Source: Nemertoderma westbladi
Lineage: Eukaryota; Animalia; Xenacoelomorpha
DNA length: 64,000 nucleotides
Direction of reading: 5' to 3'
Assembly (NCBI GenBank): GCA_032718475.1
Contig: JAUCBJ010000807.1
Span: 1,703 to 65,702 of the forward strand
The notes under the pieces were generated by a model. The model was not told the origin of the DNA. It searched no databases and saw only the letters and a list, made by a program, of their open reading frames with translations. Below, piece by piece: positions 25,301 to 61,460 of the stretch. The position numbers were made by a program, and so were the translations under genes. The first letter of the stretch is position 1. Every line of letters starts with the position of its first letter.

Positions 25301-25317
25301 ATCCCTTAACTATTATA

Positions 25318-25722: not shown

Positions 25723-25768
25723 ACTCAAAGGGCCCTATGTCCTTTGATGTTGCAATACGTACACTGAG

Positions 25769-33041: not shown

Positions 33042-33119
33042 CCGCTCCCAGAAAATGGGATTTAATTCTATAAAATATAAAAAATCACAGTTTCTAAATA
33101 TAAAAAATACTCTAAACAG

Positions 33120-39300: not shown

Positions 39301-41340
39301 GCGTCCCGGTTGTCATCAGCAGTGGTGCGCACTACTGAGCAGGCGTTTGAGGGGCTCGAGATGATCCCAAAAGCCTGGATGGTCATCCAGTACTCCACCG
39401 GTTTCTGGTTGAGGTCTCCTTCCAGCCACCACAGAAATTGTAGGCTGTCTCAATCCCTGTCCAGCGCTTTAACTTGTAAGAACATGCCTTCTATATCCGA
39501 GGCAAAGGCGATCGAATATTGTTGTAATCTTAAGAGTATTCCCAACAAGGATTGGAGTAAGTTGGGTCCCGGCAACAACTCCGAGTTAAGTGATTGGCCC
39601 ATGTAAAGGGCGGAGCCGTCAAATACTACCCGAACTTCGTTGGGTTTACCGGGTTTGGGAACGTAATGATGGGTTAAATAGTACGTTCTCTCAGTTATGG
39701 GTGTTTCTTCCGGTACTCGCTCCGCATATCCCTTATTTATGAATTTCTTCAGCTGTGTCTTGTACATCTCTTTAGCTGAAGCATTTGCCGTAAGGCGTCG
39801 ATGTAATTGCGCAATTCTTTTCTCCGCCAAGGGTCGGTTGTTTATAAAATTAGGTTCTCGCTTTCGAAATGGCAGACCAATTTCATACCTCCCTTGATCT
39901 CTAAGGAAACATGTAGTCGTTGCCTGGATCTGCTTGGCTCTTTCTTCTTCTACCGATAGGGCCTTATCGTAGGAATTGGGCTCTACAGCCTCTTGAGTAA
40001 AGAATCGTACGGCGTGTTCATCGCGAGTCTTCGCGTTGTAACGATCTATCACTTCATTCAGTTCGTCGTTGTAATCGACTTGTCCCGCTGGATGGATGAG
40101 GTGACATAGGTTCACTTGGTTTTGCCAAGTTTCATTTTCCGTAAGGAGGTCGATGGTATTCTCCTCGTCGAATAGTTGGTGGATATCGTCATTATCTGAG
40201 GAGTATGTTGTTCCCTCAGGTGTATCGTATCCCTCACTGATCTCCTCTTCCCATTCACTCACCTGGTAGACTCGATCTTTGGGTAGCCTTTCCATGAGAG
40301 TTCGACGGGAGGGTCCAGTAAAGTACCAACCCACTCTAGTTCTTCCCGCATAGGTTTGCAGTGGTTGCGGTTGAGCAGGCCGTTTCTCCAATGTCTCAAG
40401 CGCTTCATGCACATTTTGGCTGATGAGTATTTGTACTCCAGGGTAGTCTGTGTTGAATCTAGGTATCTCATGCTGCTGGGTGAAATCGTCCTCATCTGAG
40501 TTATAAGGTTCCACTTGGCTGGTAGCAAAGTTCTTTATCGCCACCATCTTTACTGACCTTATACTGTGTTCTCCTAGTTCATCCTGGGGGGTGGACAACG
40601 CGCCTACATAGTAGTCGGTAGTTACTGTAGATTTCCAAACCTGCATAATTCCTGAAAGGTTCAACTTAGTTCGGAACTTGGGTTGTCCAGCAAAGATGTC
40701 TTCGGCTAGTTCTTTGTCGATGAATGTTCCTGTGCTGCCGGAGTCAAGGAGGGCGTTCACTATATAGCTCTTTTCTGACCCGTGGACTCTCAACTGCACT
40801 ACGGGAAATTCTCGGATTCCTATGTTGGAAGTTGGTGCTTTCCAAGATGGTTGTCGGTCAGGAATAGTTAGGGGGAGCTCACTATCGGTTTCCTTCTCAT
40901 AAGTAAGTGCTCGATACACTGCGGTGTTTATTAGGTAACAGGATTCGTTTTCGTCGGAGAATTCATCCGTGTAGAATCCTTCCATCTCAGAACTTTGGTC
41001 AGTGTCGTTCACATCACTGAATTGGACATGTAGTTCGGACTCACTTACCTGACTCGGGCTGTTTCTTTCGAATTCAGTGTGCAACAAGACGAGATGTTTC
41101 GCGCCGCACTTAGCACACCTTGCATCGGAGTAACAGGTTCGCCGTTGGTGTCCTTGTCTGAGACAATTATAACACAACCGCTTATCCCACATGACTTCGC
41201 GTCTATCTATTTCTTTAAGAATTCCTCACACACACTTAAACGGTGGGGCCCGTCGCACAATGCACATTTTGGTTTGATGTTACTTACTTTACCTTGGGTA
41301 GTGTTGTGCACACTCGTTCTTTCCTCGGGCTTTCTTCCAT
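36381..41340 (-). pseudogene. BEL/Pao pol of element 1 (gag CCHC end, protease, RT, RNase H, integrase), frameshifted
   Basis: CYNCLRQGHQRRTC, ALLDSGS, VRVVFDGS, YMDD, LHVFGDAS, WTDA, HCPGTINPADIASRG, GVDLFG, SDKGTNF, WERLIRSVK. Confidence 0.93.
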
Positions 41341-41357
41341 GAATTCTCTTAGGAGAC

Positions 41358-41592
41358 GTAAAAAAAGCAAACAGTCGGCCGAAGCCGGAGGCGACCCGAA
41401 GGCTCCTCTTTCGATAGCTGCTACCCGAGGGTAGGGGTGGGCGCTACTCCTATCCCAAGATTTGCTCGCAGTTATTTAACTGGTACTCATTTCATCGACC
41501 CCAATGGATGAAAGGCTGAGTGGACCCTGGCGGGGCTGAACCTACAACCAATAGATTGCAGGCCCGGCGCTCAACCAACTGAGCTACCCCGC
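41358..41592 (-). mobile_element. tRNA-derived SINE with a Nin/Deu-domain-like core, inserted in gag
   Basis: 10-bp TSD cttaggagac (41348-41357 and 41593-41602); A box tagctcagttgg; degenerate B box ggttcagccc; core ctcagcctttcatcc...ggtcgatgaaatgagtaccag. Confidence 0.88.
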
Positions 41593-41602
41593 CTTAGGAG
41601 AC

Positions 41603-44600
41603 ATAGGAGGAGTTTTTGTTATCTGTTCTCTCCTGTCACTAGTTCGAGACTTAAATTTACTTACGTCCTTAGGCGCTTTGTTGACATAGTAAGATCTTTC
41701 GGTGTCTTGCCCGTTGTTCTCCTCTTGAGAGGCCTGGCTTTCGCCATCGTCTGTATAACACACTGATGTTACCTTTCTCCTAGAAACGGGTTTCTCACTT
41801 ACCTTATTTTCCGGTGTCTTCTCTCTGGACTGCTTTAGGAGCTGTAATTTTACCTCTCCATCCAAGAATGACATGAGATCAGCCATGGTAGGGTCTCTTC
41901 GTTGTTGTTCCATCATATATAGAACTCTTTTGTCCCAACGAGTACCCACTCCACCCTTTGGTAAGGTAGATGCTACAGCTCCAATAACCATAGAACTCTG
42001 ATATTCATGAGACTTACCTAGCCAATCTAATTGTCTACAAATCTCCTGGATCTCATCGGAAAATTCTATAATCCCGCTGCTAATGAACTTTCGGGGCGCT
42101 ACCAATTTTGCATACAAATACCTAGCTATGTTATTCCTATTACCATACCTGATGTTTAGTGTATCCCAAACTTGTCTTAATCCATCTGGATGTCAAATAA
42201 ACTTTAACGCCATTAACTTGGGAGATCCTTCCAAGCACTCGATGAGGCATCTAAGTTTCTCTCCATTAGATAGCACATAGTTTTGTATGTTATCTTTATA
42301 ATATTCATTAAAAGGTAACCATTTCATCTCATCTCCGTTAAACTTGACGATCTCTCCCACCTTTACCGCTTGACGGGCTTCGGTTCTAGCCATTTGACGT
42401 GTAAAACTTTCTTGGGCCATCGTATTATTTAATATCGAGTTATCGGTATATAAATTTCTCGGATTATTATCAGGTCTATATGAAATACCATTATCAACAG
42501 GTTTATCGCGACCCTTAATAGGGTATACTATAGGAGTTTCTACTTCACTAGCAGTATAGATGCGTGTAGGCTCCACACCTTGCGCATGAAATACTTCAGA
42601 CCTAACAGGTTGACACATTGTTACAGAGGGTGGTGGTATACCCTTTTGTAGATTTACTAACTTATCGCGTTCTAACGCGATACTCTGCTGCACTTCCTGC
42701 AATTCTAACCTACTCTCTCTTACTGTTCCCCTTAACTGTTGAACAGTCCCCTCCAACTCTCGGACCTGCTGGGAGGAGCGTGCTTGATTCTCCTCCATCT
42801 GCCCGAGGAGAATATCCATCCCCAGCCGTCGCTCATCCACCCACTCTACCGCCAAAGCGGGAGCCGCCAACATAGTAGCGGGTAGACGAGGGACGACGGG
42901 CGATAAATCGTTAATGTCTCGCTCGGCGTCCAGGACTGGAATTGACTCTGAAACATTCCTACTGGTTACAGGTAGTTTAGTACTGTGCAAAGGGAATTTG
43001 GAGTTAGGTTCTGGAAGTACAGGGGTCTCTATCACAGAAGGGGTGGCTTCGAGAACAGGCCTAATTATTTCAGGCTCATCTTCTATAGTAGGGAGTCTTT
43101 TTACTCTAATAATTTGGTCTGTGGGTTCTGTACTACCTAAGTCTGTGCTAGCTAGTTGCCTTCTCACAGCTGGGGGCAAATTAGGCAATTTCTGACGGTG
43201 GGGCGTTCTTCTACGCCTGCTGAGACGAGATCTATTTCCTCCGCCTTCAGGATCTGTTGTATCGCCTTCATCAGATGATGTAAATCCCTGTCTCTTGGGA
43301 GTAGATCAACTTATCATCTGCCACTGACTAGCTGTTCTCTGTTTATCTATGTAGTCTTGCTTCTCTTGAAGATTTTCCAACTCTAGTTGGGTGGTCTCTT
43401 CAGACGCCCTCCGTTCTGCTTCTGCCACTGCCTCTGCCGCTTTTCTTTCCGCTTCTGCAGCTGCTCGCTTGCGTCCTTCTGGGCTCCTCCCCGAGGCGCA
43501 CCCACGAGGCGGATGCTGTCCCACCACCCCTGGGGCCAGTCTGACTCCATTTTTATCAGACCGGGCCGGAGGGTAGCCCGATGCTTCCCGGGTTCAATTT
43601 TCAATCCCCCGATCACACCGGCACAGCTCGTCGGTGTAGCCAGATGGTCGGCTACTGTCAACTTACTGTGGCCTGACTGTACATTGAGCCAACTCAGAGA
43701 GTCAACCGGCGGGTGGACCAGTCGATAGCGATCGAGCATCAAGGTCGCCCTTGAGCCAAACCGACGGTCTTGTCCCAAGTGGGCTTGCGCTACCCACATG
43801 GAATATTGACACGTTTTCACCCGCCTCGCCGACAGTATTGAGGGGAAGTTGGTTGTGCAAACAATACTGACTAGCTCGAAAGCTAGGACACAAGCTAACC
43901 ACTTACCAGTCACTGTACACGTGTACTCAACAGATGCTCACAAAATCAAGTACACAACGGTAAACACAAAATCGGACACATACCATGCACACACAGAGGA
44001 CATAATCGGGAAAGACAAATCGGTGACAAAATTAGAGGGGACAAAATTGTATCGACTGATAAAAAGTCGAGAGTACCTTATTTTGCCATCAGGGCAAAAT
44101 AACTTTGTGTGCACAAAGTATGCTGGGGCGCAGTAAAGATATGGTCCTACTAATAACCAGCGGCGTCTAGACCAACCGGCAAGGTTTCCCACACTCACTC
44201 GCAGTGGCCATACACACACTCACGTATACCACGTACCCACAGCAACAGAAAGCTCAAGCAAACTGCCACTGATCGTCCACACACAAACCACAGATTCCAG
44301 AGTATCTTTCACTCGGACCACACTACCACCATCCCCTCCTTGCAGCGGATATTCCGGGTGCTACCTCCATTCCAATAGTAGTACCAACAGAATCCTGAAG
44401 CCAGAATCAGAATCCTGCCCATTCCGATGCAACACCTCCATTCCAATAGTGCTACCCTGGGAAAAGACACGTTTCGGCAACCGATCGGAGACAGCAAAGA
44501 GTCTGGTCAACTCATACATACCAAACATAGACCTACCACATAAACCACAGATCACACTAAGCCACCACCCCTACTGTGTACAGGACTGGCAGTACGGCAA

Positions 44601-46124
44601 CAGGCCGACTAGACGGTACCACGGCACCATGATGATTCATGGTTCGTAAGACACGAGGGCCTTCAGTAACTCCCTTGCACTATAGAAAGGATTTAACGTG
44701 CCCCCAGACCCTCACGAGTCCGCCGCCGCCTGTTAAAGGCACCCCTATAGAGACCTCACCTCTTTAGGTACCTTTCTTTCCGCTTCTGCCTCTTTTCTTT
44801 CCGCTTCTGCTGCTGCCATTGCCGCTTTCCTTTCCACTTCTGCCGCTTTTCTTTCCGCTTCTGCCGCTTTTCTTTCAGCCTCTGCCTCTGCCGCTGCCGG
44901 TGCCGCTTTTCTTTCAACTTCTGCCGCTGCCGCTGCTGCTATCTTTCTGTCTTCTATATGTTTTTTCTTTACCTGTTCTTCTTGCACCCTAGCGATGCGG
45001 ATGCTTTCATCAAATTTAGCTTGGTTCGCAGCTAACATTTCCGCATCTATTGCGTCCAACACAAACTTGGCTCCTTCACTATTAGGACGAAGTCCAGCCA
45101 GCCGTCTCCTCAACTCTTAGTCACCTAGAAATCGTTGATAGTCCGACAGATAGATGTCAATAGCGTCCTTCTTCTGAGGTTTCTCTGCTGTCGCTTCGCT
45201 TTCCACTTGAGAAGAGGTAGCGTCTGTTGATTCTCCGTGGGTTGAGCGCTCAGCCAGCTGAAATTTCCACTGGGCCGTTCCTTGAACTTTGAGACCCACC
45301 CGCTGGAACCAAGTCTTTACGGCAACTTGCAACGACGTGTCTTGGCTTCTTTTCGAAGCTTCCTCAAAGGCCGATAGGATTAGTCTGATTCTTAGAATTC
45401 TTTCTCGAACTTGATAAAGCAGCTCTCCCTGCTCTTGAGGTCCTTTGGGTTGTTGAAACAGTTGTTCCTCTAATCGCTCCAGAGAGCTGAAGAATCCCTG
45501 TACATATCCTGCTGCCGACCTCTTCCACACAGCTGGATCTCTAGTGTCCCTTACCACTCCCATCCTGTATAAGTCCTCCCAGGCAGCTTCCGATAAGTTA
45601 AACGGGAGTCCGGGTCCGGGGAAATTCCATTGCGTCTCGACAATAGACTTCAGTTCCTCCTTCGTGTATCCCGCATAACTGTCCTTGGTCGATCGCTTAC
45701 TTCTCGCCCAATCCATTTGATGTTCCTCCATCGCAATCAATACTCTAGTGAGTACGGCTTCAGGAAGAATGAGAAGTGGATCCGAATAAACTGCATCTGC
45801 CATCTTTGCTACGCGCTCGGGTGTCAACTCTACAGTATCTGAACTACTGGAGCTATCGGGCCGCTGAGAAATAAGTTCTCGGCTCGGGTGTTGCTGCTGT
45901 TTAACAGCTGCTTCTTGGTCCCGCTTGACTTGAGCCCGAGTGCCTATGATAGACCTACGGTGTTTGACTAGCCTAGGATCTGATACTACTACTACTGGAG
46001 GGATGACCTTTCTTACAGTAGGAGGTGAGTTGAACTTCGGTCTCAAACGTTCCGCACTCCTATCTGGATCACAGATGGTTGTATCTAGGAGACTGTCTGA
46101 CAGGTTTTGCTTTGTGTCAGACAT
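41603..46124 (-). pseudogene. BEL/Pao gag of element 1, interrupted
   Basis: KFNGDEMKWLPF...EKLRCLIECLEG core, AAEAERK coiled-coil repeats, premature stops; homologous to 62767-64000. Confidence 0.85.
43465..44771. mobile_element. Unclassified ~1.3 kb insertion in the gag AAEAERK repeat
   Basis: Absent from the sister gag at ~63100-63250; no recognisable protein. Confidence 0.7.
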
Positions 46125-47196
46125 GTTTGTTTGTACAGTTGAATGCCTACTGCTATAACTACAGTTAAAGCAAGTCTAGTAATTCAGTATCAACTGTTAG
46201 CCTAGTAATTAATTACCGATATCGTTACTCTAAGTAACGTGATATATATACAATATATTAAAATACCGGTATACACTTATAGTATATATATAAGTATTAT
46301 TACAGACTAGGTTTGTCACAGAATACCGGTATATAATTTCAGCGCAAATATATATAAATATATAATAAGCCTACTGTGAATACCAGTATACAGTTCCACT
46401 TATAGTATATATAAGTATAATTATAGACTAAAATTAATTACAGAATACCGGTATATAATTTCAGCTTAAATTTATAGAAATAAATATAATAAGCCTATCG
46501 TAAATACCGGTATGTCAATTATTTTATAATAACTGAATTTCTGAATTTTAGGGTTACTTTACGTTACTTTATTACCGTTATTTAAGCAGTAGTCCAACTG
46601 ATATTAAGACCTAATTGATGAATGACAGGCCTACTATTTTATAAATCGGTTTGAGTTGATTTATAATATATATACCCGTATAATGGGTTTTTGTCAATGT
46701 TTGAAATAAATGTTATTATTTCTAGGTAAGGAGTCACTACACAGAAGCTAGACGCTCTCAGTGGAGTGCTACTTATTGTATTGGACACTAAAACAAATAA
46801 TTCTAATTTACTAAGTTACTTATTACTACAAATTACGTACAATTACGGGGTGAGATTACAATCTCTAAATAAACACAAAAGTTACACGTACAAATTTTAG
46901 GGTAACTTTACAAGAAATCTGCAAACCAGCCTAACAAGGGGTTAGAATTTCTGGTTATTACAAACGGACAGGATACTACGGTATTTGAAAATAATAAAGC
47001 AGTAGTAAATATATTGCGTTGTCCAGATAGGAAAATACCACCGTCTGACGACTTATAGTCTCTAGCTTTACAGCTCTATAAGTACTACGTTATGTACCCG
47101 GAGTGTTCCTACCTAGAAGTTAATTACCGCAGCCAACCATAGCTAATGTGCCTATTAACCACTTTACAACACAAATATACTGCCTACACACTAATT

Positions 47197-47915
47197 ACAG
47201 CAACTGACACATGTAGGGTCTATGAAATAGCATTCATTTCACTCCAAAACCACTATAATGTAAGTCGCAATTGTTATATATAACGGGTCCCTCTTACCTT
47301 CAGTATATCAAGAAGATTGGGGTTTTATGATTATTTATCGATATTCTCCAAATATAACAACATATTCATCAACTGATAACAATTAATAACCGACAGTAAA
47401 TAGCAGTAAAATAATGCGGTGAAAGGTATATATAGTATGATTATTGAGTGTTGCGTTTTGGTTTGATAACAGTTATACGTTCCTATAATCAAAGCCTACT
47501 AATGTTTGGCTAAAGTCTGAAACACAGAATAATTCCAAAGCCGATGTTCCAGGGCTCAGGAAAAGGTAAACAAAGACCGTAATGCATTGCGCGATCTTCC
47601 GTAGGCTTCTGTACAAGATAAAATGAAAATCGCTCTGATTGGTCGAGCGAGCCGAACAAAGAAAGCCAAAAAGCTCCACATCGACATATCAGCTGGTAGA
47701 TGTCGTCATCTGAACTACACTGTATTAAGAGTATTTTGACGCATTGCGGCATAAAATGGCTTGTTATGTCCGCTAAAGTACACATACAGAATAATGGCTT
47801 TTTATGTCCGCTAAAACACCTACACAGTAAGAAAAATGGCTTTTTATGTCCACTAAAATACCTACACAGTACTTTGCGGGGAAAATGACTAGCTATATCC
47901 GCAAAAGCTTTTACA
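47197..47915 (-). repeat. 5' LTR segment of element 1
   Basis: Near identical to 32315-33041 apart from a short block near 47425-47470. Confidence 0.88.
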
Positions 47916-49365
47916 TTTCGTGGTAGGATATTCTTGTACATAGCTCATCATAGATGGGATTAACATACGTTATTTTATTATTCACCTAAGTAGCTTGTTG
48001 ATTATTGTTTTTAGTGGTATCAAGGAACTATAATAATTGACGTTTCCCCAAAGAAAAAATCCATATTTAATTTTTATTGATTGTGTTTGGAGGGAGCTTT
48101 CATAGTTTATAATCTAAGAGAAGGATGAGTAGACTGTTTTTTTTAGATCAAGTGACAGACGATTATCTGATAACCAGCTGATAACCTTTGTTTCAGCTCT
48201 AACATTGAAAATAAAGAGTTGAGGTGGGATTAGAAAGGTAGAGAGGGTTGTACCGTCAGTGAAACCCCACGCTCGTGTACCCCGATTCTGGGGCTTCGGG
48301 CATCACGAAGTCTGTCTAGATGGGCGATTGCGAAGCACTCACTAGCAGCAGACAGAGGAACTATAGAAAGGGGTGTTTCTCTGTGAAGAATTTATAAATT
48401 TTTGATAAACTAGAGGTGTACACCAAGTTTGGTTCTGTTTTATCAAAGCTTGATGTTCCAGAATAATTTAATAAACTGCACAATATGCTGCAATTGAACG
48501 GAGAATGAATAAAATTGACACTGGCCTGTCTGTTACACGTAAATTAACTCGGTAACTATAAGTCGCATACGATTTTTAAATAATTATAGTTGATATAATT
48601 ATTAAGGTAAATGATGCCAAAATATTATAAAATTTCACTACAAGGAAATTTAATAAGTAATTTACAATAAATTGATATGGCTGCAAAATCCCCATATGGA
48701 ATAACAAGGTATACTTCAGTCAAGCAGACGTAATGTCAGGGGCGTCACAGCCACCCTTGTGACCCCTGCGCTCCAGGGGTGGCGCAAGACCGGTGGGTGG
48801 GGGCTCAGCCGTTTTTTACAAGGACATCTTTTTACATGTTCAGTAAAAAAATAAACGAAAAATATAATAATTAAATAGAAGGTTAATAATTTCGACAATT
48901 AATTTTTTTACAACTGTGAACATGATAATATTATGTACTGTAGCATCCTATGTGCATGGGCACATGGTTTTGAACCACAGTAATAACCCCCCCCCCCCCC
49001 CCCAGATCTATATTATTAACGATAACAGTTTAGACCAGGTAACAGGTAAGGTTAATGTTATCCCAACCCTGGCCATGGGTGGCCAAACGAATGTAAAACG
49101 AACGGATGAAGTGGTAGGCATTCACAAGCGGTAACATAGTGTAAAGATGATAGAAAAAATATAAAGTATTGATTGAGGGTCTTTAGCTGGTTATATTATA
49201 TTAAATAAAGTACAATAGACCATTTAAGGTTGTAGCCCCAAGGTCAAGCCAACATTACCAATAATGCCCCCCCCCCCCCCCCCTTCCCCTCCCCCTCCCG
49301 CTCTCCGGCAGATCCCTTTTTCTCCATCCCATGATATGAATCGACAGCCTTATCCTTATCACTCA

Positions 49366-50091
49366 CTACCACAGTAGTCTGTAAAATATTACCGACTCGC
49401 CCTTCAGCCCCGTGTGGTCTACCAAACCCTCGAAAGTTACTTTGAAGGCTCTTCTGTAGTTCAGGGGTGATCCCGATAGCAGAAATGCCGTTGGTTCTCT
49501 TTCGATAACCAAGGTCATGAATAGGTTTAGCAAACCTATCATTATCCAGTCCTCCTGCAGGATATATCGCTTCTGATATATCTTTATCGCTCCTCTCCGG
49601 AATTGATACACCTCTTGCTTCCCCGGTCTCGCTCCCCACTTCAGCGAGTTCGCCAACTCCGCTCCGTACTCCTCCCTGAATTTACCCCAGTCCATTGGCT
49701 TGTGGCATACGAGCCCCATTAACTGGCCCATCGCCACCGCTCCACAATGACCCGCGTTCTCCACTAGTCCCAACCCGGCTGGCGCTGTCATAGCCATGTA
49801 GACCGTTTGCATGTCCAGAAGTTTGGGGGTCTCCGGACCGATGATCCTCTCCGCATCGTCGCGGATCGCCGATCCCACCTTTATCGTCGACTTCTCTCTT
49901 ACTAGGCTCTGCACCGCCTTTGGCAACCGGTTTAACTTCGGCCCGTTCTTCTTCCCATACGTTCCCAGATCGAACAGGAATATATCCCCATTTGGCGCGG
50001 CCAAATGTAGGAGTATGGTTCTGGCCGACCCCGCCGACCCTCTTCTCGAACCTTCCTCGTCTTCCACGGTCCCCTCATCGTCTGGGACCAT
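49366..50091 (-). CDS. DnaQ/DEDDy 3'-5' exonuclease-like protein (WRN/EXD2/Mut-7 type)
   Basis: ExoI-like MVPDDEG; LLHLAAPNGDIFLFDL; LPKAVQSLVREKSTIKVGSAIRDD (ExoII); LLDMQ; ExoIII-like QKRYILQED. Confidence 0.7.
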   Translation of the reverse strand: MVPDDEGTVEDEEGSRRGSAGSARTILLHLAAPNGDIFLFDLGTYGKKNGPKLNRLPKAVQSLVREKSTIKVGSAIRDDAERIIGPETPKLLDMQTVYMAMTAPAGLGLVENAGHCGAVAMGQLMGLVCHKPMDWGKFREEYGAELANSLKWGARPGKQEVYQFRRGAIKIYQKRYILQEDWIMIGLLNLFMTLVIEREPTAFLLSGSPLNYRRAFKVTFEGLVDHTGLKGESVIFYRLLW

Positions 50092-50379
50092 GTATCCTCC
50101 TCTTTATTTCCTAAAGTGCCAAATTTCCTAAATTCTCTAATTTTGTCAGTTACTTTAATTATGTTCTGGAATATCCTGCCTACTGTTACCATAATTTGTC
50201 TAATTTTGATTTTAATATTTAATTTTAATCCTACAACTGGGCTATCAGTGTCTACTAATGGATTATTTATTCTTGTAATCCATATTCTGGCCTACTCTAT
50301 GGGCTGTGCAGTACAGCAGTATGTCTCATGCGGCCTACACGATCTGTCCTGCCGTACCCACGTGCCCCCCTCTCACTAC

Positions 50380-50935
50380 TCACTACTAACTCTACTAACT
50401 TTTACTAACACACTAACTCTTACTAACATTCTAACTGGCTTCTACTAACGGTACTACGCGTACCCTCTTTCTAACTCTTCTACTAATGGTACTATGTACC
50501 CTCTTACTAACTAACTCCACTAACTCTTACTAACGGTACTACGTACCCTCTTACTAACTAACCCCACTAACTCTTACTAACGGTTCTACATACCCTCTTA
50601 CTAACTCTTCTACTAACGGTACTACATACCCTCTTACTAACTAACTCCACCAACTCTTACTAACAGTACTACGTACCCCCTTACTAACTCTTCTACTAAC
50701 GGTACTACGTACCCTCTTACTAACTAACTCCCCCAACTCTTACTAACGGTACTACGTACCCTCTTACTAACTAACTCCACCAACTCTTACTAACGGTACT
50801 GCGTACCCTCTTACTAACTAACTCCACTGACTCTTACTAACGGTACTACGTACCCTCTTACTAACTAACTAGCTCTCTAACTAATGGTACTACGTATCCT
50901 CTTACTAACTTCTATCTGCCTACTTACTTACTACG
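50380..50935. repeat. ~40-50-bp tandem repeat between integrase and the exonuclease ORF
   Basis: (taacggtactacgtaccctcttactaactaactccaccaactcttac)n, about 11 variable units. Confidence 0.92.
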
Positions 50936-51073
50936 TACCTACTATGTACTATTACTTTCCTTTCTCTTATTCTCTATCTCTATTATTTTTAAAAAAAAAT
51001 TTATATTTTGTGTGGGAAGGGTGTCTCGCCCTCAATCCCACCCCCCTTAGTCCAACACTTGGATGACTAAACT

Positions 51074-53850
51074 CTATGGTGCCCCTTCTAGCAGGCAACA
51101 TTTGCCTACAGCCCTCCTGTAGGTCTTTCTGTCTTTCGCTCCTATCTTGCAACCTATCCGCACCTCCACCGATCGGACTCTTCCGTCCTCGTCGGAGTAA
51201 GTGTCCACTACTCTTGCTAGTCTCCATTGATTGTTGATAATGGTGTCATCCGTGACGATCACCAAATCACCCTTCTTTAACTCCCTAGTGGTATTTCTCC
51301 ACTTGCTCCTCCTATGTAGCGTGGGTAGGTATTCCTCAACCCACCTCCTCCAGTACTCTGCACTTATCGCCTTAGCGACTTTCCAACTCTGTCGGGAGTG
51401 TATGTCGTCTGGGTCTACACCCCGCATGTCGATGGTCGCTGGCCTCTCCATTAGAAAGTGACTGGGTGTCAGCACATCTAATGATTCTGGGTCGTCATTC
51501 TCTGCGTATAGCGGTCTGCTATTGATGATACCTTCGCACTTGGCTAGTACTGTCCTTAGTATATCTTCTGTCACCATGTGGGTGTTCATCAACTTCGTCA
51601 TCAGATGCTTGGAACTACCCACGAGTCTCTCGACGCATCCTAAAGTATGCGGGGCATACGTCCTCCCTATTTGCGACGAATATAGGGTATCTCGTCTTCT
51701 CATTGTGTAGCCAACCAAGCACTACCATGGAGTCCGTCCAGTAGTGTGTTTCCACTATGTTGGGAATAGTGTCCATCAAGTAGGCTGTGGCCCTTACTCC
51801 TAACCTCGCAGCTGTCAACTCGAGTTTCGGGACCGATGCTGAATCTGGCGGCGTCGACTTTGCTTTGCTGAATGCAAGTCGGGCTTATGAGCCCCCTCTC
51901 GTTGTACTAGGTAGAGTGCCGCTCCGTATGCTTCAAATGACGCATCGGAGAACATGTGTAGATCCAGATCCGTCTTGTTCCCATCCGGAAATTACACGCG
52001 TGGCATGCTGTATGTCCCCATCCGTTCTAAACTCTCCATCCACTTGCTCCATTGCTTGCTGATCTCTTCCGGGACCTCTGTATCCCATTCGTCCTTTAGC
52101 TTATATACTTTCTTAAGTATCTGTTTCCCCGTGACTAATAGTGGGGATGCTAGGCCTAGGGGATCGTATATCCTTGCTATGTATGATACATAGCCCCTCT
52201 TTGCGTGGATGTCTGCGCCCTCCTGTCTCAGCTGGTATTTGAACTCGTCTGTCTCTCGATTCCACACGATCCCTAATGCCTTCTGCTGGGATTCTACCCT
52301 CTTGTTCGCCATGTCCTGTCCCTTGGCTGTCGTGGGGTTATCCATGGTCAACTCTGGCCTCCTGTCCTCTATGGCTTTCATAAACTCTTCTGAGCTGGAT
52401 TGGAACTTGGTCAGGTTGAACCCGGATCCTTTTAGGATGTCGTGAACCTTGCGCCCTGTATCCAGTAGTTCTTTAACCGTATTTCCAGATTCCATTCCGT
52501 CGTCTACATAGAAGCCGCGTCGAATCATATCGACGGCTTTGGTGCTATATTTTTCCTCTTTCCCCTCCACTGTATCCCTCACGTCCACAGTCGTCGTAAA
52601 TGAGGACGACTTGGCCCCCATATTCTGCACCACCATCTTGTACACTGGTATTGTCGATGGTTCCTCGTCGCCGTTATACCATAGGAAGCGCTGGCTGTCA
52701 CTATCCTCCTCCGTCACGCGGACTTGGTTGAACATGCCTTCAATGTCGCAGGTGAAGGTGTGCCTCCCGTTTCTGAATCTGAGTAGGACCTCGATCCCTG
52801 AGTTATAGATATTGGGACCCTCCAGCAGATAATCGTTTAGGCATTTGCCGTTGGTCTTAGCCGATGCGTCAACTACCATCCGCAGTTTACCTTTCTTCGG
52901 GTCTAGAGCCACGTGAAGTGGCAGGTAATAGGTCCTATCCGTGTTCGGTCTGTCGACCGGTAACTCCACGGCCCATCCTTTCTCGACATACTTTGTTATC
53001 ATTCTATGAATGTACTCATTCTTTTCGGGGCTCCGTTTTAGCGTTTGCTTCAGTTTACGAAGCCTCGTGAGTACCATCCCCTTGTTGTCCGGTAGCGGTA
53101 ATTTTGGTTGTTTCCATACCATCCCTATGGTGTACCGCCCCTCGTCGCATCTCATCGACTCCTTTACACTTTGTATTGCCTGTTTATCTTCCACCGAGGT
53201 TCCGACCCCGGTCTCTTTCAATCCCTCAAAATCCTGCCTAAGCAGTCTCCTGAGCTGCTCCTCCGCTCCTTCATCTTCCATCTCCCTCATAGTTCCCGCG
53301 AACATGCACCCTGATGTCTCCGACATCCTAAACGGAATCCTGGTTCTAATTGGGCCGCTTAGCGTCCACCCAAATGGTGTTAAAATTGCCACCCGGTCAT
53401 GCTGCCTGTCTTCGGCGAAGACCGTCTGCATTCTCTCATGGGCTGTCGGGAAGTCCATTCCTACTATAATGGATACCTTCCTAACTTCCACCTCTGGTAT
53501 TGAGAAGTCGATAGTGTCCAGGAATCTATATTGTTTGACCTCGATGTTGTTTGGTCGCCTGGCGTTGATATTTATCGATTCTATCACCTGAATGGGGTCG
53601 ATCGTCGCCCCATAATCGCATCCCAGTGCTATCGCTGCTATCCCGCACCGTCCGGTCCTCATCTCCAGGACCTCATCTTTGCTGGAGATGGTTGTTACCG
53701 CCATTCTACTTGGCCTTGTCTTTAGTCCTATCTCTTCGGCTACCCAATCCTCGACCAATGTGAAGGCTGCTCCACTGTCGACCAGCATTAGCGTGGTTAC
53801 TGATCGATCGCCTTCTCCGATCACCCTCACTGGTACTACCCCGAGTCGTA
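51074..53850 (-). pseudogene. BEL/Pao pol of element 2 with the integrase N-terminus deleted
   Basis: LVDSGA, LRMVVDAS, FYVDDG, YDPLGL, WTDSMVVLGWL. VANR joins directly to APHTLGCVERLV near 51660. Confidence 0.9.
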
Positions 53851-53859
53851 CCGTTCCTC

Positions 53860-56800
53860 TCTTCTACGGTGCTTGTCGCCATTGTCTATCCTTTGCCTTG
53901 CATGAACTTAATTGGTGTTTCCTTGCATTGGTTAGCTCTATGTCCACCCATCACACATCGAGGACAGACTTCGCTCCTCCTTGCGTATTCTATCTGATCT
54001 TCTCTGGGCAGCGCTTGCCAATATCTGCAGTTCATGGTCTGATGAAGTGCGTTCGTGTGTAATTGGCATTTGTTGTTTGGGTTATAGCCATCCTTATATA
54101 GTGCGCTCCGTATCGCACTTGCGTTCGTACCTAGATCTCTACTATTCTTATTGTTTGGGTTCGGCCTACTGGGCGTGTTGGGGTTATGTTTATTTGTGTT
54201 GTTATTTTTACCCTGTCCGCTCCATGGTGTAGCCCTACCCCCGGCTACATGTGGACTAGCAGTCCCCTGCGTTGCCGTGTATGGCAGCAATTGTCTGAGC
54301 TTTGGCAATGCATTCGCCGTGTTGTGTTCTGGTTTCGGCCTATTGTATTCGGTCTTTGGCCCCTTTCCCAGACTATCCTCGCTATAGACTGGGTCGGTGA
54401 TTAATTCGGCTTCATAGTTGAGGAAGCTCGACATTTCTTCTAGGCCTGGTTCCGTACCCGTCTTCTCCCTGGTGAAGAAAGCGATTTTCCTCCATTTATT
54501 GCGCAGCCAGATCGGCAGTGCCTGCGCTATCGTGGTGATGTTATTAGATGCGTTGAGTTCGTATGGCGCATCTAGCGTCTTCAATATGATTAGCGCCTTC
54601 TCGACTTGACTCTCGACTTATGCTAACGGGGTTATCCTGTAGGCCACCCGATCTTATACCTCTTAGGGTTTGCCGGATGATCTTGGCCGGGTGCCTGTAC
54701 TCCCTGTCTAGCGCCCGCCATGCTGTCGTGAAGCCACCCTCGATGCCCTGGTACTGCCTCACGATGTCGTATGCTGGGCATCCTGTATACACCTGTAGAT
54801 ATTTTAGGCACTCCGCCTGCATCAGGTTCTTTGTCAATATTTCATTGCTGTACATGCGCCTAAAATGGAGGTATTCTTCCGGCCTACTTCCATCGAATTT
54901 AAATGGTTCTACAGGTGGTAACTCGATTCTGGTCTTCAATGCATCGATTAATGTAGCCATTCCCATCGCCTGTGCTTCCAATGGGTTCGATGGATGCTGT
55001 ACAGATTCTCCCGTTGGGTGCGGTCCGCTCGTCCTGTCTGTTGCGCTCCTTTGCGTCGGGTATATCATTGGGGGTAATGGCCCCCTCCATATTTCCGTGT
55101 CGCATGATCTGTTCTCGTCCAGGGGGTTCGATGCTTATTCCTGTTTGAGTATATTGTTGATATTGTGATGGGGGAATGTCACCCTGCCCCCCCCCCCCCC
55201 CCCCCCACCGGTATATTTGGTACTGGGGTTGATGTTAATATACATATCCATACACCTATCCGCAATAACTCTCCCCTCCCCTGGATATATGTTATGTCCC
55301 TGCATGCTATAGTCATACTGTTGTGCTGGGACCGGTATAGGCCTATCCACTTCTGGCCTACCTACCGGTATGTACTCCGCGACTTCCTGGCTTAATCCCG
55401 TCGTCCGCGCTACCCTATCGCATACATTATCTCTCCCAGCATGGCCTATAGTATGTGCAGTAAGGCCTACAGTATGTCCTGCAGTCTGTATGTGTCCCTC
55501 CGGACCGAAGTTTAACCTTCTCGAATAATCCAAGAAGTCCTCCCCGCGACTACTGTATCCTCGATCGGCAGCTATATCCCGTCGGGAAGTTTCTCTTCGA
55601 TCCCCTCTGCTATTCTCGTCCTCGTACCGTCCTCGTCCTATACCCCTCTCTCGGCGTATAGTACACCTCGCCAGGTCGCGTCTCTCCGGGACGATGGCAA
55701 TCTCCCGGAGTTCGACCCCACCGACTCTCCAACTCCATCTCTACTACCGACAGCTCGCTATCCGTCCTCGCTCTCCTGTCGCTCGCAATGACACTTCTTC
55801 TACACTCTTCTCTTCTTCTTTCTGCAGTGTAGCGTCCCCGCTCGTGGGATCTCTCGTCGACCTCCCGGTTAAACTCCACTGTTCTTCTTCCCTCTTCTGA
55901 CTGGGCTCGACGTCTCGTCGCTCACCCTCTCGCGACGCCAACCTCTCTCTCTCTACCCGGTAGCATGCCGCTGGGGACATTCGTAATCCCCCTACTATTC
56001 TCCATCACCGGGTGCTGCAGTTCACCTAATTCGCCCCGCGCATTATCCGCCGACGCCTGTGGGGCACTCTCTGCCCCCCCCCCCCCTCTCGCCCTCTAAT
56101 CTCTCGTTGTGGGGCTCCTGTAGCCCCCCCCCCCCCCCCCACTCGCCACCTATCACTTCACTATCTCTCACTTCACCTCTACGCCCCTCTCTAGTCGACA
56201 CACTATCTCTACTGCGGCTGGGTCTATTCACACCCGCCTCTCCCTCTATTGCTGCGTTGCCTGGCAGGCTCCCGTCGGGTTGACTCAACCCCGCCACTCC
56301 CTGCGCACTAACTACGTGGCCTACAAGGCCCCCTTCGGGGTCTCTCACCCCCGCTACTTCCTGCGTACTGATTACGTGGCCTACCAGGCTCTCGTTTGCC
56401 GGGCCACCTACATTTGCTGTGTTTACATTAATAGCACCATTATTAATATTATTTTCTGAATTATTTAAATTATTAGAATTACTCTGTGCTGAATTCGGAT
56501 TATTATTTAAATTATTTTGTATATTTGAATTATTTTGGATTCGGATTATTTTGTTCGTTTGAATTAAAATTATTATTTAGATTATTTTGCGTATTTAAAT
56601 TATTTGAATTATGTAGTATATTCGAATCTAGATTATTATTTGAATTATCTGTATATTTAAATTAGGATCGTTCGGATTTAAATTACTATTATCGGGCAAA
56701 ATATTATTTCCTGCAATGAAAGTTTGATTAGGGTTATCTACTACGGTATTATTAATATTAATGTTCTCTAAAGTATTATTATTACCCCCCCCCCCCCCCC

Positions 56801-57640
56801 CCTCCGCCCGTATGGTTACACCAGTCTTGGGTCTGTCGTCCGGTCCCTGTAAGTGGGGTATTAACAAACGTTTCCATAACTTCTGGCTCCTCGTAAACAC
56901 TACCTGAGCCAGCCTCGCTCTCTGATAGCCCCAACTGCGCCAGTTCTAGTCGGCGCTTCTGCTTGGCCTGATACTGCATAAGCCCCCTTAGCCGGGCGTG
57001 CATATCATCCCGCATACGCTTTCCCGCTCTCTCTCTCTCCCTATCCTCCCTTAAACTTTGGTCCGCAAATTCTACCTCTCTCGCCTCCCGCTCTCTACGT
57101 TCATTCATTTCTCTCACTTCCCATTCTTTGCGCTCCGCTTTCTCCCTCATCTCTCGTTCCTCGCGCTCTTTCTCTACTCTCGTCTCTCGTTCCTCGCGCT
57201 CTTTGCGCTCGCTCATCTCTCTTTCTTCCCGCTCCCTACAGTTTCTCGCCACCCTCTCGGCCCTCTCTCTACACTCCTTCGCCAGTTCCCTCTCCTTTTC
57301 TAACAACGCAGTCCCCTCGTCCAACTGCCTCTCTAACTCTTTCTGGTCTAGCGCCACCATGTCCAACTGACACGCCAGATCTATCTCCAACACCCTTCTT
57401 GCTTTCGCGGAGGATGAAGCGGACTTATCGGTCACAACGGACTCCCGTCGCCTCTCTGTCCTACTAATTTTCCCCCGCTTTCTGGGGTTCTCGCTAACCA
57501 ACGAGACCGAATCCTCGGGGTTAACCTCGGATTCGCCCACGTGCGGGTTTGCCCAACCCACTAACTTAATTCCCCTAGCATCAACTAAATACGCCCTATG
57601 TACACTATCTGGGGCTCCATAATCCCGGATCGCCACAGTT
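53860..57640 (-). pseudogene. BEL/Pao gag of element 2 (charged coiled coil, Asn-rich tract, gag core, Cys/His knuckles)
   Basis: ELPPVEPFKFDGSRPEEY, LPIWLRNKW, CQLHTNALHQTMNC, CPRCVMGGHRANQC; frameshifts, several at G homopolymers. Confidence 0.82.
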
Positions 57641-60600
57641 CAAATAGTTCGGTGGTGACCCCCCTCGCTCTCTCACTCGCTAGTTCTCCCTGCCCGAAGT
57701 GAACTAGGTACCTAAAGTGTTTGTTCGACACAGCTAGTCGCTGGTTTAATTTCTTACCTTAAATCTTACCTTAAATTTCTACCTTTGCTCCTTGTTTGGC
57801 CTCTTTGAGCTGCTTCTTCGTCGTGTTGTAGGCTCGTCGGAGCCGGTCACTGGTTCCGACGTCCTCGTCGTCGACCTCTCCTCCTCCCCCTCCTGGTTCG
57901 GCATCGTACCGGCGGCCCCACCGTCGCCATTCCGGTGGGCTGTCCGTCGCCCTCGGCCTGTGGCTGGCCGGCGACATCGGTACTACGACCGCCGTCGTGC
58001 GTCGACTCCTCCTCCCGTTGTGGTAGACGGCCGCCCTCCGCTTGGGCTGCCGGATTGTCTCTGTCCGGCGAGTCCGGCGTTGCGGGTCGATACCGTCGCG
58101 TCGCGCCCTCACGGATCGTCTCGTTCGTATCGTCCGGGGTCCGTGGCGGTGTCGTCTCTCCCTCTAGATCTTGGGGTTGCGTACTCATCTTTTAACGCTT
58201 TCTTTGGTGGCTGGCAGTCACAGTTTTAACAGTAGTACTCTGGATTTTTGTTCTGTGACGGGATCAGAGGATCCCGACCAGTGAATTTGTTACGCGTCGC
58301 CGTGCCGTTAGGGAAAAGATAGTTTGTTGTTGTTATCTTTGATGTTGATATAAACGGTAATATAATATAATTAATGTGAATATAATAGCACAGTTGTCCA
58401 GGATGAGATAACGAATAATATGATATGCTAATAAGATAATACACTGAATAGGATACCGGTAACGGTGGTAACACGACGGTACAAAAATGTCACTGGTCCC
58501 CACTGTGTGACTGAGATAACTGAATAGGATACAAACACTAACCGGTAATATATATTCACCTCTACTCTACTTGTGGCCTTGTTACTTAGCGGATGCATTT
58601 TCCTTGTCCCCGATTGGCCAATAACCTAATTCTCGGCTCCCACCTCTGTGGGAGTGTTCCCCCCCCCCCCCCCCCCCCCCGCTGCTGTCACTTTCCCTCT
58701 CCAAGAGGTTTGACCTCTAACCTCTTTTGTGTGTGGCTCTTTGGGGCCGTGTGTTGTCCCCATTTATTGGGGGTGATACGAGGTTGATTGTAATCCACCT
58801 CGTACTCCCCAATATTGCTTAAAACGTCACTTCTCAACTTTATGGGGTTGGTGGAGCGGAATTGAATCCGCTCACAATATGTGTCAGAGGACGTTGGCCT
58901 GACCCAGGCCCAAATGTGCTCTGATTGGACACAACTTGTTTAAGTCTTAAGTGGCTAGGTTAACGATTTGATATTGTCGTCATAATCATATTGTTTTTAC
59001 TTATTATATTATTACATTACATATTGTAAATATTTACAATTACACTTTTTCTTTATATTTTATTTATCATTATGTATTTAAAGGGGGACTTCGGAGCAAT
59101 AAAAATTCATCCCTCTTCAGAGGAAATTCGACGCAAATAAATAACTACTCGCAAAAATAAAACTGTAACCTGTCTTAGTATGGCCGAGTTTCGTTTTTTG
59201 TTTTGGTTAGAAAATACGTGTCACTGTAACCTGCTCCTTTCCATAAATTGAGCATTTAACATTGATGCGAAATATTAATTGAAAAGATGGATTTATTTGC
59301 GTCCAATCCTACCCCCCCCCCCCACCCCCCCCCCCCCCCCCTGTCTCATTATTTATTATAAGGGTGGGCGGGAAAAGTGTGGTGTGTGTGTAAAAGCTTT
59401 TACTGAATTGTCCGGTTATTTTTCCTTATTTTTCCCGTAAAGTACTCTGTAGTTGGTTTACCAGGCATAAAAAGGCCGTGTCCTTGCTGTACTGGTGTTT
59501 TAGCGGACATAAGAGCTATTTCTTCTGTATTTGTACTTTAGAGGACATAATCCGTAATTCCGTGACGTAAAAGCACGATACTCTTGAAAACAGTGTCGCT
59601 ACCATGACGACGGCTAGCAGCTGATATTGCCACGTCGACGTTTCTTTGTTTCTCTGTTCTCTCGTTGTTCAGGTTGACCAATCAGAGCGTTTGTTATCTC
59701 TGTGTTGGAGGTATATACAGAAACTCAGTAGTTCAGTGTTATTGTTTTTGTCCAGAGCCTAAGAACCGGCTTTGGCACCTCCGTGTTTTAGTTTTTAGTC
59801 TTACACTAGTAGGTTTAATTATAAAGGGCATATATCCTTTAACGCACCTACCTGACTCATGGAATCACTGCATACTGATGACTGATGTCTGCATACTGCA
59901 GTACTGCATACACTGCATACTGTGTAACATTGTGCATACCTTTATATTGTTATACTGCTATTTACCGTCAGTTCTTCATAATATGGTTGATGAATAATTA
60001 TATTTGGAATAACGATAAACAACCCCGAAACCCAATGTTCTTGATATACCGAAGGTAAGAGAGAAGGGTTACAGATAAACGATTGTGACTTATGTTAAAG
60101 TGGTTTGAAGTGAATCTAATGTTATTTGATAGACCCTACATGAGCCAGTCTGTGTTCCTTATATATGTGACTAAAATCAGTGAAGATCGGCAGATTAGTG
60201 TGCAGTATTGTGCAGCATTGTGTATGAGTGAGTCTGTTAAAGAAGCATTCCTAAAGAATGCGCCATATATGTGAATTATAATTAAGCCATATCGTTGTGA
60301 GTGGTTTAAGTCATAACTCTGTTTATATAGATAAAGCGCCACGTCCTAAAGGAACTGTTAATATTCCCGAAGGTGAATAATATTGTCAGAGATTATATAA
60401 TACTGTCAGTCGAATAATACATTAGGCTTACATAGCAATAAAATTAAACCGTCGAACCCAATCTCCCGGGAATTTCCAGCGGGTGAATGGTCGCGCACGG
60501 ATTGGTTTCGACTAGTGTAGTGAATCAAATACTTGTCATAGACTAAAAACTGATTTAATATCTAGAAGACATCTTAATTTGGTGGGTTAAACTGCCAAAG

Positions 60601-60953
60601 GTCTGAAAGCGCGAACATTAAAGGATATAGCTTCTTTATTGCAGTAAGCAATAAAGTCGAAAGTACCGGTCGACCGGTAACCAGTAGGCCTGACTGCCTG
60701 ATCATCCGGACCGGTACCTACAGCAGTATTATTCGATTTGATTGTATATACCGGTAGGTCTTAATAATTAATCGGGGACGCCTGGTTTTTATTGAGATTT
60801 TACTTGGCCTATTTCTGTCAAGTTTTATTTATTTGTAGGCCAGTATTGAACAGAAGGCGTGTAAGCCTGATCAGATTGTACAGACAATTTGTAGGCTGAG
60901 CTGTTGTCTGATTGCTGTTAAGTCCGAACGAATTGCAGTGTGTGTAGAGCACT

Positions 60954-61460
60954 TGTCCGATTAAGTACGGTTAGGAAGTAGGGGCAGCAACGCTGTAAGG
61001 TAATCCCCCAGACTAAAGAATAAGTCGCACTACTGGGTTAGAGCGCATACTCCCTAATCATTTCGGAGTCTGCATGTCCTGTAGTTTATTTAGGCTTGAG
61101 AGTAGTCTGCCATCGTTTAGTCTGTACTTTGTTTGTGTAAGTCTGTACGGGTAGCGTATAATTTTATTTAGATAATTTGTAGGCTGGATAGTTGTCTGGC
61201 TGTTATTAGGTCTGAACGGATTGCCGCGTGTGTAGATCATCTGTCCGATTAAGTACGATTAGGCAGTAGGGGCAGTGAACACTGTAAGGTAAACCCCCAA
61301 CTAAAGAATAAGTCGCACTACTGGGTTAGAGCGCATACTCCCTAATCATTTCGGAGTCTGCATATACCGTAGTTTGTTTAGGCTTGATAGTAGTCTGTCA
61401 GTGTTCGGTCTGTATTTTGTTTGAGTAGTTTGTACGCGTAGCGTAATATTTATTATTCAG
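60954..61460. repeat. ~287-bp-period direct duplication in the LTR/leader of element 3
   Basis: tgtccgattaagtacg...aagaataagtcgcactactgggttagagcgcatactccc at ~60955 and ~61242. Confidence 0.88.

What the first reader, a model, noticed from the sequence alone, without database searches (positions are those of the whole stretch)
49366..50091. BEL/Pao retrotransposon carrying a DEDDy 3'-5' exonuclease ORF in the env position
Seen: a 241-aa ORF co-oriented with pol, ~1 kb downstream of the integrase stop and behind a tandem-repeat spacer. Its motif order matches WRN/EXD2/Mut-7-type exonucleases (PDDEG; LLHLAA..IFLFDL; LPKAVQSLV..IKVGSAIRDD; QKRYILQED, one residue off the canonical YxxxD). Known: the usual extra ORFs of BEL/Pao elements are env-like glycoproteins, and DEDDy relatives (Mut-7/Nibbler, EXD1) act in small-RNA pathways. 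Inference: a captured nuclease used for cDNA/RNA end processing or for interfering with piRNA silencing. I do not know of this as a standard BEL module. The 3' LTR was not found, so membership of the element is not proven.
Basis: partly seen in the sequence, partly recalled or inferred. Interest (0 to 1): 0.85.

Follow-up and report, generated by a model that had tools for sequence, protein, structure and literature searches.

The report
BEL retrotransposon carries exonuclease-like extra gene
Just after the polymerase gene of a highly repeated BEL/Pao jumping gene lies an extra gene, kept by selection, that likely belongs to the element and likely encodes an RNA-trimming (DEDDy) nuclease fold, a kind of cargo already described in rotifer elements of another superfamily; its activity and job are untested.

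Summary
The 241-codon ORF is real, co-oriented with a BEL/Pao pol, 983 bp past the integrase stop and behind a 47-bp tandem spacer. In contigs of public DNA runs it is repeated about as often as pol: roughly a thousandfold in three runs, near single copy in a fourth. 21 of 29 listed differences among copies are synonymous (9 expected), so it is a selected gene of a repeat family, most likely this element's ORF3. Homology to WRN/EXD2/Mut-7-type DEDDy exonucleases is probable but weak. Pfam, PDB and 1.8 billion protein representatives give no hit. A WRN-type profile ranks it above 2000 shuffles and 1433 natural decoys (P 2e-5). Exo II is clear; Exo I and Exo III are atypical and their register is ambiguous, so activity is open. 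The window copy is defective: pol is deleted, no LTR pair was found, the last ~8 codons are private to this copy, and the N-terminus may be clipped. DEDDy ORF3s are known from bdelloid Gypsy-type elements (Rodriguez 2017); I found no report for BEL/Pao. Verdict: new variant of a known kind, moderate interest.

The parts
49366..50091 (-). ORF3, 241 aa in this copy; likely WRN/EXD-type DEDDy domain in residues ~1-196; family-shared part 49391-50097
49300..49390 (.). DNA private to this copy; holds the ORF's last codons and its stop
   Evidence: bin 49302-49387 depth 57/30 in X1/X2; single-copy contig 49267-49428
49267..49300 (-). G-rich purine tract; PPT-like, but poly-C/G runs are common in this window
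49092..49260 (.). short dispersed repeat with a sharp outer end at ~49096; candidate 3' LTR or unrelated repeat; no partner copy in the window
   Evidence: loose ends of 25, 14 and 2 contigs, agreement 0.49-0.65
50098..50383 (-). non-coding leader of the ORF; possible break at 50097-50103 where relatives diverge
50384..50939 (.). tandem spacer, 47-bp unit, about 10 copies; multi-copy and length-variable in other copies
51074..51655 (-). integrase C-terminal part (PF18701, E 1e-25)
51666..53863 (-). protease, RT and RNase H (PF13650, PF00078 weak, PF05380), broken; ~400 codons missing at ~51660
53886..55134 (-). gag pieces (DUF1759, zinc knuckle)
55135..58150 (-). 5' part of the repeat family with ORF pieces, including a 285-aa Glu/Arg-rich frame at 56782-57639; multi-copy depth falls near 58150

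Best explanation
The ORF is a selected, multi-copy gene that is likely the third gene of a high-copy BEL/Pao retrotransposon family and likely folds as a WRN/EXD2/Mut-7-type DEDDy 3'-5' exonuclease with a variant active site. Shown: position, repetition on the scale of pol, purifying selection, and the defective state of this copy. Inferred: in intact members it would be made from a subgenomic RNA, as ORF3s usually are, would engage RNA 3' ends, and would most likely help the element against host RNA silencing by trimming or degrading guide or target RNA ends. It is unlikely to be a core step of reverse transcription or integration, because BEL/Pao elements are described without it. My odds: belongs to the element 0.85; DEDDy fold 0.85; active enzyme in intact members, given the fold, 0.55; anti-silencing role rather than processing of the element's own RNA or cDNA, about 0.5 and untested.
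For: Linkage: summed contig depth over the ORF bin 49736-50202 is 22,948/24,002/11,147/26 in X1/X2/X3/X5, against 33,373-50,562 / 20,425-34,704 / 18,925-30,124 / 8-92 over the five pol bins, while flank contigs have depth 15-27. No bin between 49388 and 51250 falls below 4,578 (X1) or 2,432 (X2). Contigs of other copies join 49851 to 50111, 50199 to 50276, 50436 to 50899 and 51055 to 51096. None of the 15 joints shown (of 48) skips the ORF. Selection: 21 of 29 listed ORF differences are synonymous against 9.1 expected, 20 of 29 are at third positions, and 14 of 15 in residues 13-187 are synonymous. Fold: an HMM of 92 bacterial WRN-type exonucleases scores the ORF 9.8 bits, P 2.2e-5; 0 of 2000 shuffles (max 3.1) and 0 of 1433 other natural ORFs (max 4.3) reach it. 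The two tiles holding the ORF are the top two of 852 window tiles. hhalign scores 26.2 against a maximum of 23.5 in 150 shuffles, colinear over 136 columns. K71, G73, D79, G108, W152, Q173 and Y176 fall on invariant columns. The ten best named ESM Atlas hits share the PF01612 family or clan (lead only). It is not env-like: highest 19-residue hydropathy 1.44, no NxS/T, two Cys. Precedent: PMC5408684.
Against: No hit in Pfam or NCBIfam at E 10, PDB sequences, 1.84 billion representatives or the 90% collection. The HMM match covers only residues 55-98 and would not be significant in a library-wide scan; hhalign probability is 10%. Atlas scores are 0.77-0.80, which a third of shuffled proteins reach. 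Exo I and Exo III registers differ between aligners and neither is canonical. With the family alignment supplied, AlphaFold leaves residues 1-20 (both Exo I candidates) unformed at pLDDT 35-38. No contig spans ORF and integrase, and summed depth is not a copy number. Two relatives stop matching at 50097 and one X5 contig stops at 50103 from the other side, which a separate insertion could also give. No LTR pair was found. The variant rows are 40 of 290, chosen by the tool. There is no evidence on mechanism beyond analogy.
Confidence: 0.55

Rival explanations
1. The ORF is the element's ORF3 and has the DEDDy fold, but it is a pseudo-nuclease that works by binding RNA, for example to localise or protect the element's RNA or to sequester small-RNA factors, as Egalitarian, Exuperantia and Exd1 do.
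For: Exo I lacks the hydrophobic residue before Asp and the small residue after it found in 92 of 92 family members (FDT, IDS, FDS, VDT, LDR). The Exo III Asp column holds Glu, or Arg in the other register. Residues 21-196 are basic, pI 9.5. Egl binds I-factor RNA signals and does not need its catalytic residues (bioRxiv 10.1101/2025.08.03.668247, passages).
Against: D79 is kept at Exo II, acids are present near all three motifs, and the one listed difference at E13 is synonymous. Rotifer ORF3s keep a variant but intact tetrad, DEED. This copy is decayed, so odd residues may be private to it.
Confidence: 0.25
2. The ORF belongs to a different repeat (another transposon's gene) that lies beside or inside this BEL copy and merely has a similar copy number.
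For: No LTR pair; no single contig spans ORF and integrase; matches break at 50097/50103 and depth falls to 2,400-12,000 over 50076-50419. DEDDy domains occur in Dada DNA transposons and Terminons. None of 80 other BEL loci carries a homolog.
Against: Depth of ORF and pol rises and falls together between X1-X3 and X5. Contigs of other copies join the ORF interior to the leader and the leader to the integrase side. No transposase or terminal repeat was found around the ORF. Most of the 80 loci end within 1.5 kb of integrase or lack it.
Confidence: 0.1
3. The ORF is a real accessory gene of the element but not a DEDDy protein; the motif likeness is chance.
For: All library searches are blank. 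The single-sequence model has pLDDT 31. The profile signal rests mostly on one 44-residue stretch.
Against: The hypothesis was named before the test and the ORF beat all 3433 decoys. Five motif blocks are in order, and the Atlas lead is separate evidence.
Confidence: 0.1

Closest known systems
DEDDy ORF3 of bdelloid rotifer LTR retrotransposons Juno and Vesta (Rodriguez, Kenefick, Arkhipova 2017, PMC5408684; main text read)
   Same: Separate ORF downstream of pol, in the env position, no TM segment, DEDDy-like with an altered tetrad, function untested.
   Different: Those elements are described as gypsy-like lineages with dUTPase; this one is BEL/Pao. Their ORFs had strong HHpred homology, an intact DEED tetrad and proven LTR pairs. 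Here homology is weak, Exo I and III are atypical and no LTR pair was found. Common ancestry was not tested.
DEDDy ORFs of Terminons and the DEDDy domain of Dada DNA transposons (PMC6431247 and PMC3706591, passages)
   Same: A DEDDy domain carried by a eukaryotic mobile element.
   Different: Other element classes; in Dada the domain is inserted within the transposase and keeps all four acids.
WRN exonuclease, EXD2, Mut-7/Nibbler, and their bacterial PF01612 relatives
   Same: Motif order: LH/LQ strand, FLF strand, KVG..D (Exo II), W, QxxY..acid.
   Different: 16-27% identity, atypical Exo I and III, insertions, no helicase or other domain.
Egalitarian, Exd1, Exuperantia (bioRxiv 10.1101/2025.08.03.668247, passages)
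   Same: DEDD-fold proteins that act by binding RNA; a model for the pseudo-enzyme rival.
   Different: Host genes with extra domains; no sequence relationship was shown here.
Belpaoviridae with an env-like third gene (ICTV profile PMC8742986, whole text)
   Same: gag, pol (PR-RT-RH-IN) and a third gene before the 3' end.
   Different: The third gene here has no envelope features.

Membership tests
BEL/Pao (Belpaoviridae) | Pol order PR-RT-RH-IN with BEL-type domains | tested here: met
   PF13650, PF05380 (E 1e-16), PF18701 (E 1e-25) and PF03564 in that layout; colinear with BEL polyproteins
BEL/Pao (Belpaoviridae) | Paired LTRs flanking the genes, enclosing the ORF | tested here: inconclusive
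   No pair in the window. The repeat at 49092-49260 has a sharp end, but loose-end letters do not show a shared TG terminus. The copy is defective and no genome is held
BEL/Pao (Belpaoviridae) | PBS for tRNA-Arg or tRNA-Gly; polypurine tract | tested here: inconclusive
   Purine tract at 49267-49300 and a TGG at 58280 seen by eye; not compared with a tRNA set
DEDDy 3'-5' exonuclease (WRN/EXD/RNase D) | Detectable homology to the family | tested here: met
   Weakly: P 2.2e-5, above all 3433 decoys; below the Pfam cut-off
DEDDy 3'-5' exonuclease (WRN/EXD/RNase D) | Exo I D-x-E on the first beta strand | tested here: inconclusive
   Two candidates, D4/E6 and D11/E13, both with atypical flanks; strand unformed in the model
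DEDDy 3'-5' exonuclease (WRN/EXD/RNase D) | Exo II Asp after KVG | tested here: met
   K71, G73 and D79 align in HMMER, hhalign and MAFFT
DEDDy 3'-5' exonuclease (WRN/EXD/RNase D) | Exo III YxxxD | tested here: not met
   The strict motif is absent in this copy: Y176xxxE180 (MAFFT) or Y162xxxR (hhalign)
DEDDy 3'-5' exonuclease (WRN/EXD/RNase D) | DnaQ-like fold | tested here: inconclusive
   Single-sequence model unusable. The model built on a family alignment matches DEDD folds at Z up to 7.7, rmsd 3.8, 142 aligned, but this is circular
DEDDy 3'-5' exonuclease (WRN/EXD/RNase D) | Metal-dependent 3'-5' nuclease activity | not testable with these tools
   needs a bench assay
Juno/Vesta-type DEDDy ORF3 | Separate co-oriented ORF downstream of pol, without TM segment | tested here: met
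Juno/Vesta-type DEDDy ORF3 | Host element of the rotifer gypsy-like, dUTPase-bearing clades | tested here: not met
   pol is BEL/Pao
Juno/Vesta-type DEDDy ORF3 | Groups with rotifer retroelement DEDDy ORFs in a tree | not testable with these tools
env-like third gene | TM anchor, glycosylation sites, Cys pattern | tested here: not met
   highest 19-residue hydropathy 1.44, no NxS/T, two Cys

The most novel reading that the evidence does not exclude
A BEL/Pao family carries its own deeply diverged DEDDy protein, with no detectable relative among 1.8 billion representatives and a remodelled active site. It acts as an element-encoded suppressor of piRNA/siRNA silencing, which let the family expand to the order of a thousand copies while a relative in another sample stayed near single copy. 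This would extend the shared retroelement DEDDy pool to a third retroelement group and give a direct test of what such ORF3s do.
Probability: 0.2. Interest if true: 0.8.

Novelty: new variant of a known kind. Interest (0 to 1): 0.5.

Why it matters
The function of enzymatic ORF3s in LTR retrotransposons has been open since 2017. A case in BEL/Pao would show that DEDDy cargo recurs across superfamilies. A high-copy family under selection would allow residue-level conservation analysis and a clean nuclease or anti-silencing assay. It also warns against labelling every BEL third ORF as env.

Tried and rejected
Blank searches with the ORF: Pfam, NCBIfam, PDB sequences, 5.8-billion collection at near lengths, 1.84-billion representatives, metagenome and viral contigs, phages and plasmids (34; two weak unrelated hits, E 2 and 7). 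Single-sequence AlphaFold gave pLDDT 31. Foldseek on the alignment-guided model gave no match at E 0.001; the top rows were EXD2. No whole genome is held. No RNA holder was listed, which says nothing on expression. A frameshifted N-terminal extension from the leader was tested with X at the break and did not raise the profile score (9.5 against 9.8 bits), and a common difference among copies is a stop in the one open upstream frame, so it was rejected. An LTR partner was sought between 47900-49400 and 56500-59500 and in the whole window; none was found. The 96% repeat pair 32315-33041 / 47197-47915 belongs to the neighbouring BEL element. 80 BEL loci from metagenomes (the best 80 of 184) gave no ORF homolog and no PF01612 hit in 60 of 102 downstream ORFs scanned; the 42 left out were mostly in tandem or permuted gag-pol stretches, antisense, or far downstream. 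All 1247 ORFs of these loci were also scored with the WRN-type HMM, none above 4.3 bits. Most of these contigs are too short to test the point. The neighbouring element's 3' region shows no DEDDy signal. Pairwise BLAST to E. coli RNase D and to a Mollivirus-record exonuclease was not informative. An env reading was rejected. No tree against host EXD/WRN/Mut-7 was built, because no eukaryotic reference sequences were obtained.

Full report
Observation. The minus strand has an open frame at 49366-50103 with an ATG at 50091, giving 241 aa. It lies 983 bp past the integrase stop at 51074, behind a leader of about 290 bp and a tandem array at 50384-50939 with a 47-bp unit. Upstream are BEL/Pao domains in the order gag (DUF1759, zinc knuckle), protease, RT, PF05380 and PF18701. 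The integrase piece finds 17 BEL-type polyproteins at 32-39% identity. This copy is defective: against three intact polyproteins about 400 codons are missing near 51660, and gag and pol are in several frames. No LTR pair was found. The host is probably an animal, since BEL/Pao is described from metazoans.

Is the ORF part of the element? No genome is held, so I laid contigs of public DNA runs on the window. In X1, X2 and X3 (X1 and X3 are one sample), flank contigs have depth 15-27. The ORF bin 49736-50202 sums to 22,948, 24,002 and 11,147, and the five pol bins to 33,373-50,562, 20,425-34,704 and 18,925-30,124. In X5 the ORF bin is 26 and the pol bins 8-92. So ORF and pol are both repeated on the order of a thousandfold in two samples and near single copy in a third. 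The tool warns that summed depth is not a copy number. At finer scale, no bin from 49388 to 51250 falls below 4,578 (X1) or 2,432 (X2). Contigs from other copies join 49851 to 50111, 50199 to 50276, 50436 to 50899 and 51055 to 51096, and none of the 15 joints shown (of 48) skips the ORF. Against this, no contig spans ORF and integrase, depth is lower over 50076-50419, and two diverged relatives (X1 record 7, X5 record 21) stop matching at 50097 while X5 record 22 stops at 50103 from the other side. I read that break as a probable loss of sequence in this copy just upstream of the ATG, so the family gene may start further upstream. A separate insertion is the less likely alternative. At the other end, 49302-49387 is single copy in X1 and X2, so the last 8-10 codons and the stop are private to this copy. 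A short repeat at 49092-49260 has a sharp outer end with mixed flanks; it may be the 3' LTR, but it has no partner in the window and the loose-end letters do not show a shared TG terminus. I put membership at about 0.85.

Is it a gene? One search lists 40 of 290 differences, chosen by the tool; 29 fall in the ORF. Of these, 21 are synonymous against 9.1 expected for the same change types, 20 are at third positions, and 14 of 15 in residues 13-187 are synonymous. Sites are not independent and two codons have several changes, so the P values (1e-4 and 7e-6) are indicative only. The direction is clear: purifying selection in this frame.

What does it encode? All library searches are blank (one search gave two weak unrelated hits), and the single-sequence model is unusable. 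The ESM Atlas lists PF01612 clusters first, at scores of 0.77-0.78, which is a lead only. A Bacteroides-type exonuclease whose best solved relatives are WRN (E 4e-17), EXD2 and Mut-7 seeded a set of 92 bacterial WRN-type proteins. Their HMM scores the ORF 9.8 bits, P 2.2e-5; none of 2000 shuffles (max 3.1) or 1433 other natural ORFs (max 4.3) reaches it, and the two tiles holding it are the top two of 852 window tiles. The reported match is only residues 55-98 and would not pass a library-wide threshold. hhalign gives 26.2 against a maximum of 23.5 in 150 shuffles, colinear over 136 columns, but a probability of 10%. MAFFT with 40 of these relatives (33 loci, 7 proteins) puts K71, G73, D79, G108, W152, Q173 and Y176 on invariant columns. 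AlphaFold given that alignment builds a model of mean pLDDT 63, with 64-87 over residues 21-100 and 35-38 over residues 1-20. Its best structural matches are DEDD domains at Z up to 7.7, which is circular and counts only as compatibility. DEDDy fold: about 0.85.

Active site. Exo II (KVG..D79) is agreed by all three methods. Exo I has two candidates in a 7-residue repeat, D4-x-E6-G and D11-x-E13-G. The aligners prefer D11/E13 by spacing (18 residues to H29, against 19-20 in 91 of 92 family members), but neither has the hydrophobic residue before Asp or the small residue after it. The match of relatives up to 50097 leaves D4/E6 possible. For Exo III, MAFFT gives Y176xxxE180 followed by D-W in the family's A-W/Y columns, while hhalign uses Y162 with no acid. 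The strict DEDDy tetrad is therefore not met in this copy. Whether intact members are active cannot be told from the 29 listed sites; none falls on D4, E6, D11, D79, Y176 or E180, and the one at E13 is synonymous.

How it likely works. Shown: a selected extra gene that tracks a BEL/Pao family. Inferred: expression from a subgenomic RNA (ORF3s are described as separate, spliced units in PMC5408684), binding of RNA 3' ends by the DEDDy fold, and an accessory role. I favour action against RNA silencing over cDNA processing, because BEL/Pao elements are described with gag, pol and at most env, integrase trims its own ends (recalled), and the nearest subgroup includes Mut-7/Nibbler and Exd1. This step rests on analogy only. 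The main rival is a pseudo-nuclease that binds RNA, as Egalitarian does without needing its catalytic residues.

Comparison with what is known. Rodriguez, Kenefick and Arkhipova 2017 (PMC5408684; parts 1-3 of 5 read, all main text; supplement not read) describe DEDDy ORF3s, with DEED, in Juno and Vesta elements and Terminons, and discuss 3'-end processing and a mut-7-like role. DEDDy domains also occur in Dada transposons (PMC3706591, passages). Reviews cite only these cases (PMC5718144, PMC6338049, PMC6431247; passages). For BEL/Pao, the ICTV profile (whole text) names only env-like third genes. The word 'exonuclease' does not occur in the main text of PMC3118150, PMC8556966 or PMC8220671. 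Nine literature searches (listings and abstract starts only, apart from the papers named) showed no BEL/Pao case. The library omits most subscription papers and Repbase records, and supplements were not read, so a prior annotation is possible. Unchecked notes of this scan report DEDD-type ORF3s, some dead, in Gypsy elements of other genomes (8 of 26 shown) and none for BEL/Pao. They are leads, not support, but they lower the surprise. Among 80 other BEL loci none carries a homolog, though most are too short to tell.

Verdict. A real, selected gene, probably ORF3 of a high-copy BEL/Pao family and probably a diverged DEDDy protein, seen here in a broken copy. New variant of a known kind; interest 0.5.

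Noticed in passing
window 32315-47915: A second, different BEL/Pao element with 728-bp direct repeats of 96% identity and about 3.4 kb between its integrase end and the 3' repeat. This stretch holds ORF pieces (33120-33650, 33578-33793, 33759-34019, 34343-34594) with no convincing Pfam or DEDDy hit; it may be another decayed accessory gene.
   Followed up: partly
window 59946-64000: A third BEL-type copy on the + strand, about 83% like the element at 32315-47915, running off the window end.
   Followed up: no
window 3591-7873 and 16673-19405: Long inverted repeat arms of 94-99% identity around LINE-like ORFs (endonuclease and RT at 10009-14390; a further RT at 5613-7043).
   Followed up: no
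window 10027-11375: A 39-bp tandem array of about 35 copies, in frame within a 743-aa frame that ends in an endonuclease domain.
   Followed up: no
window 27195-30638: A 17-18-bp satellite array that switches orientation at about 27560.
   Followed up: no
window 30723-31544: A 273-aa frame with four LDL-receptor class A repeats, just outside the second BEL element.
   Followed up: no
window 56782-58280: The 5' part of the finding's element holds a 285-aa Glu/Arg-rich frame with no Pfam hit. At 58260-58280 a TGG is followed on the element strand by a short inverted repeat, a possible priming site; multi-copy depth falls near 58150.
   Followed up: partly
window 49096-49156: This 61-bp stretch is tandemly duplicated in many other copies (joint depth 1,183 in X1 and 4,481 in X2), and the repeat around it is about tenfold deeper than the ORF in X5.
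   Followed up: partly
window 25800-26215: An isolated BEL pol fragment.
   Followed up: no
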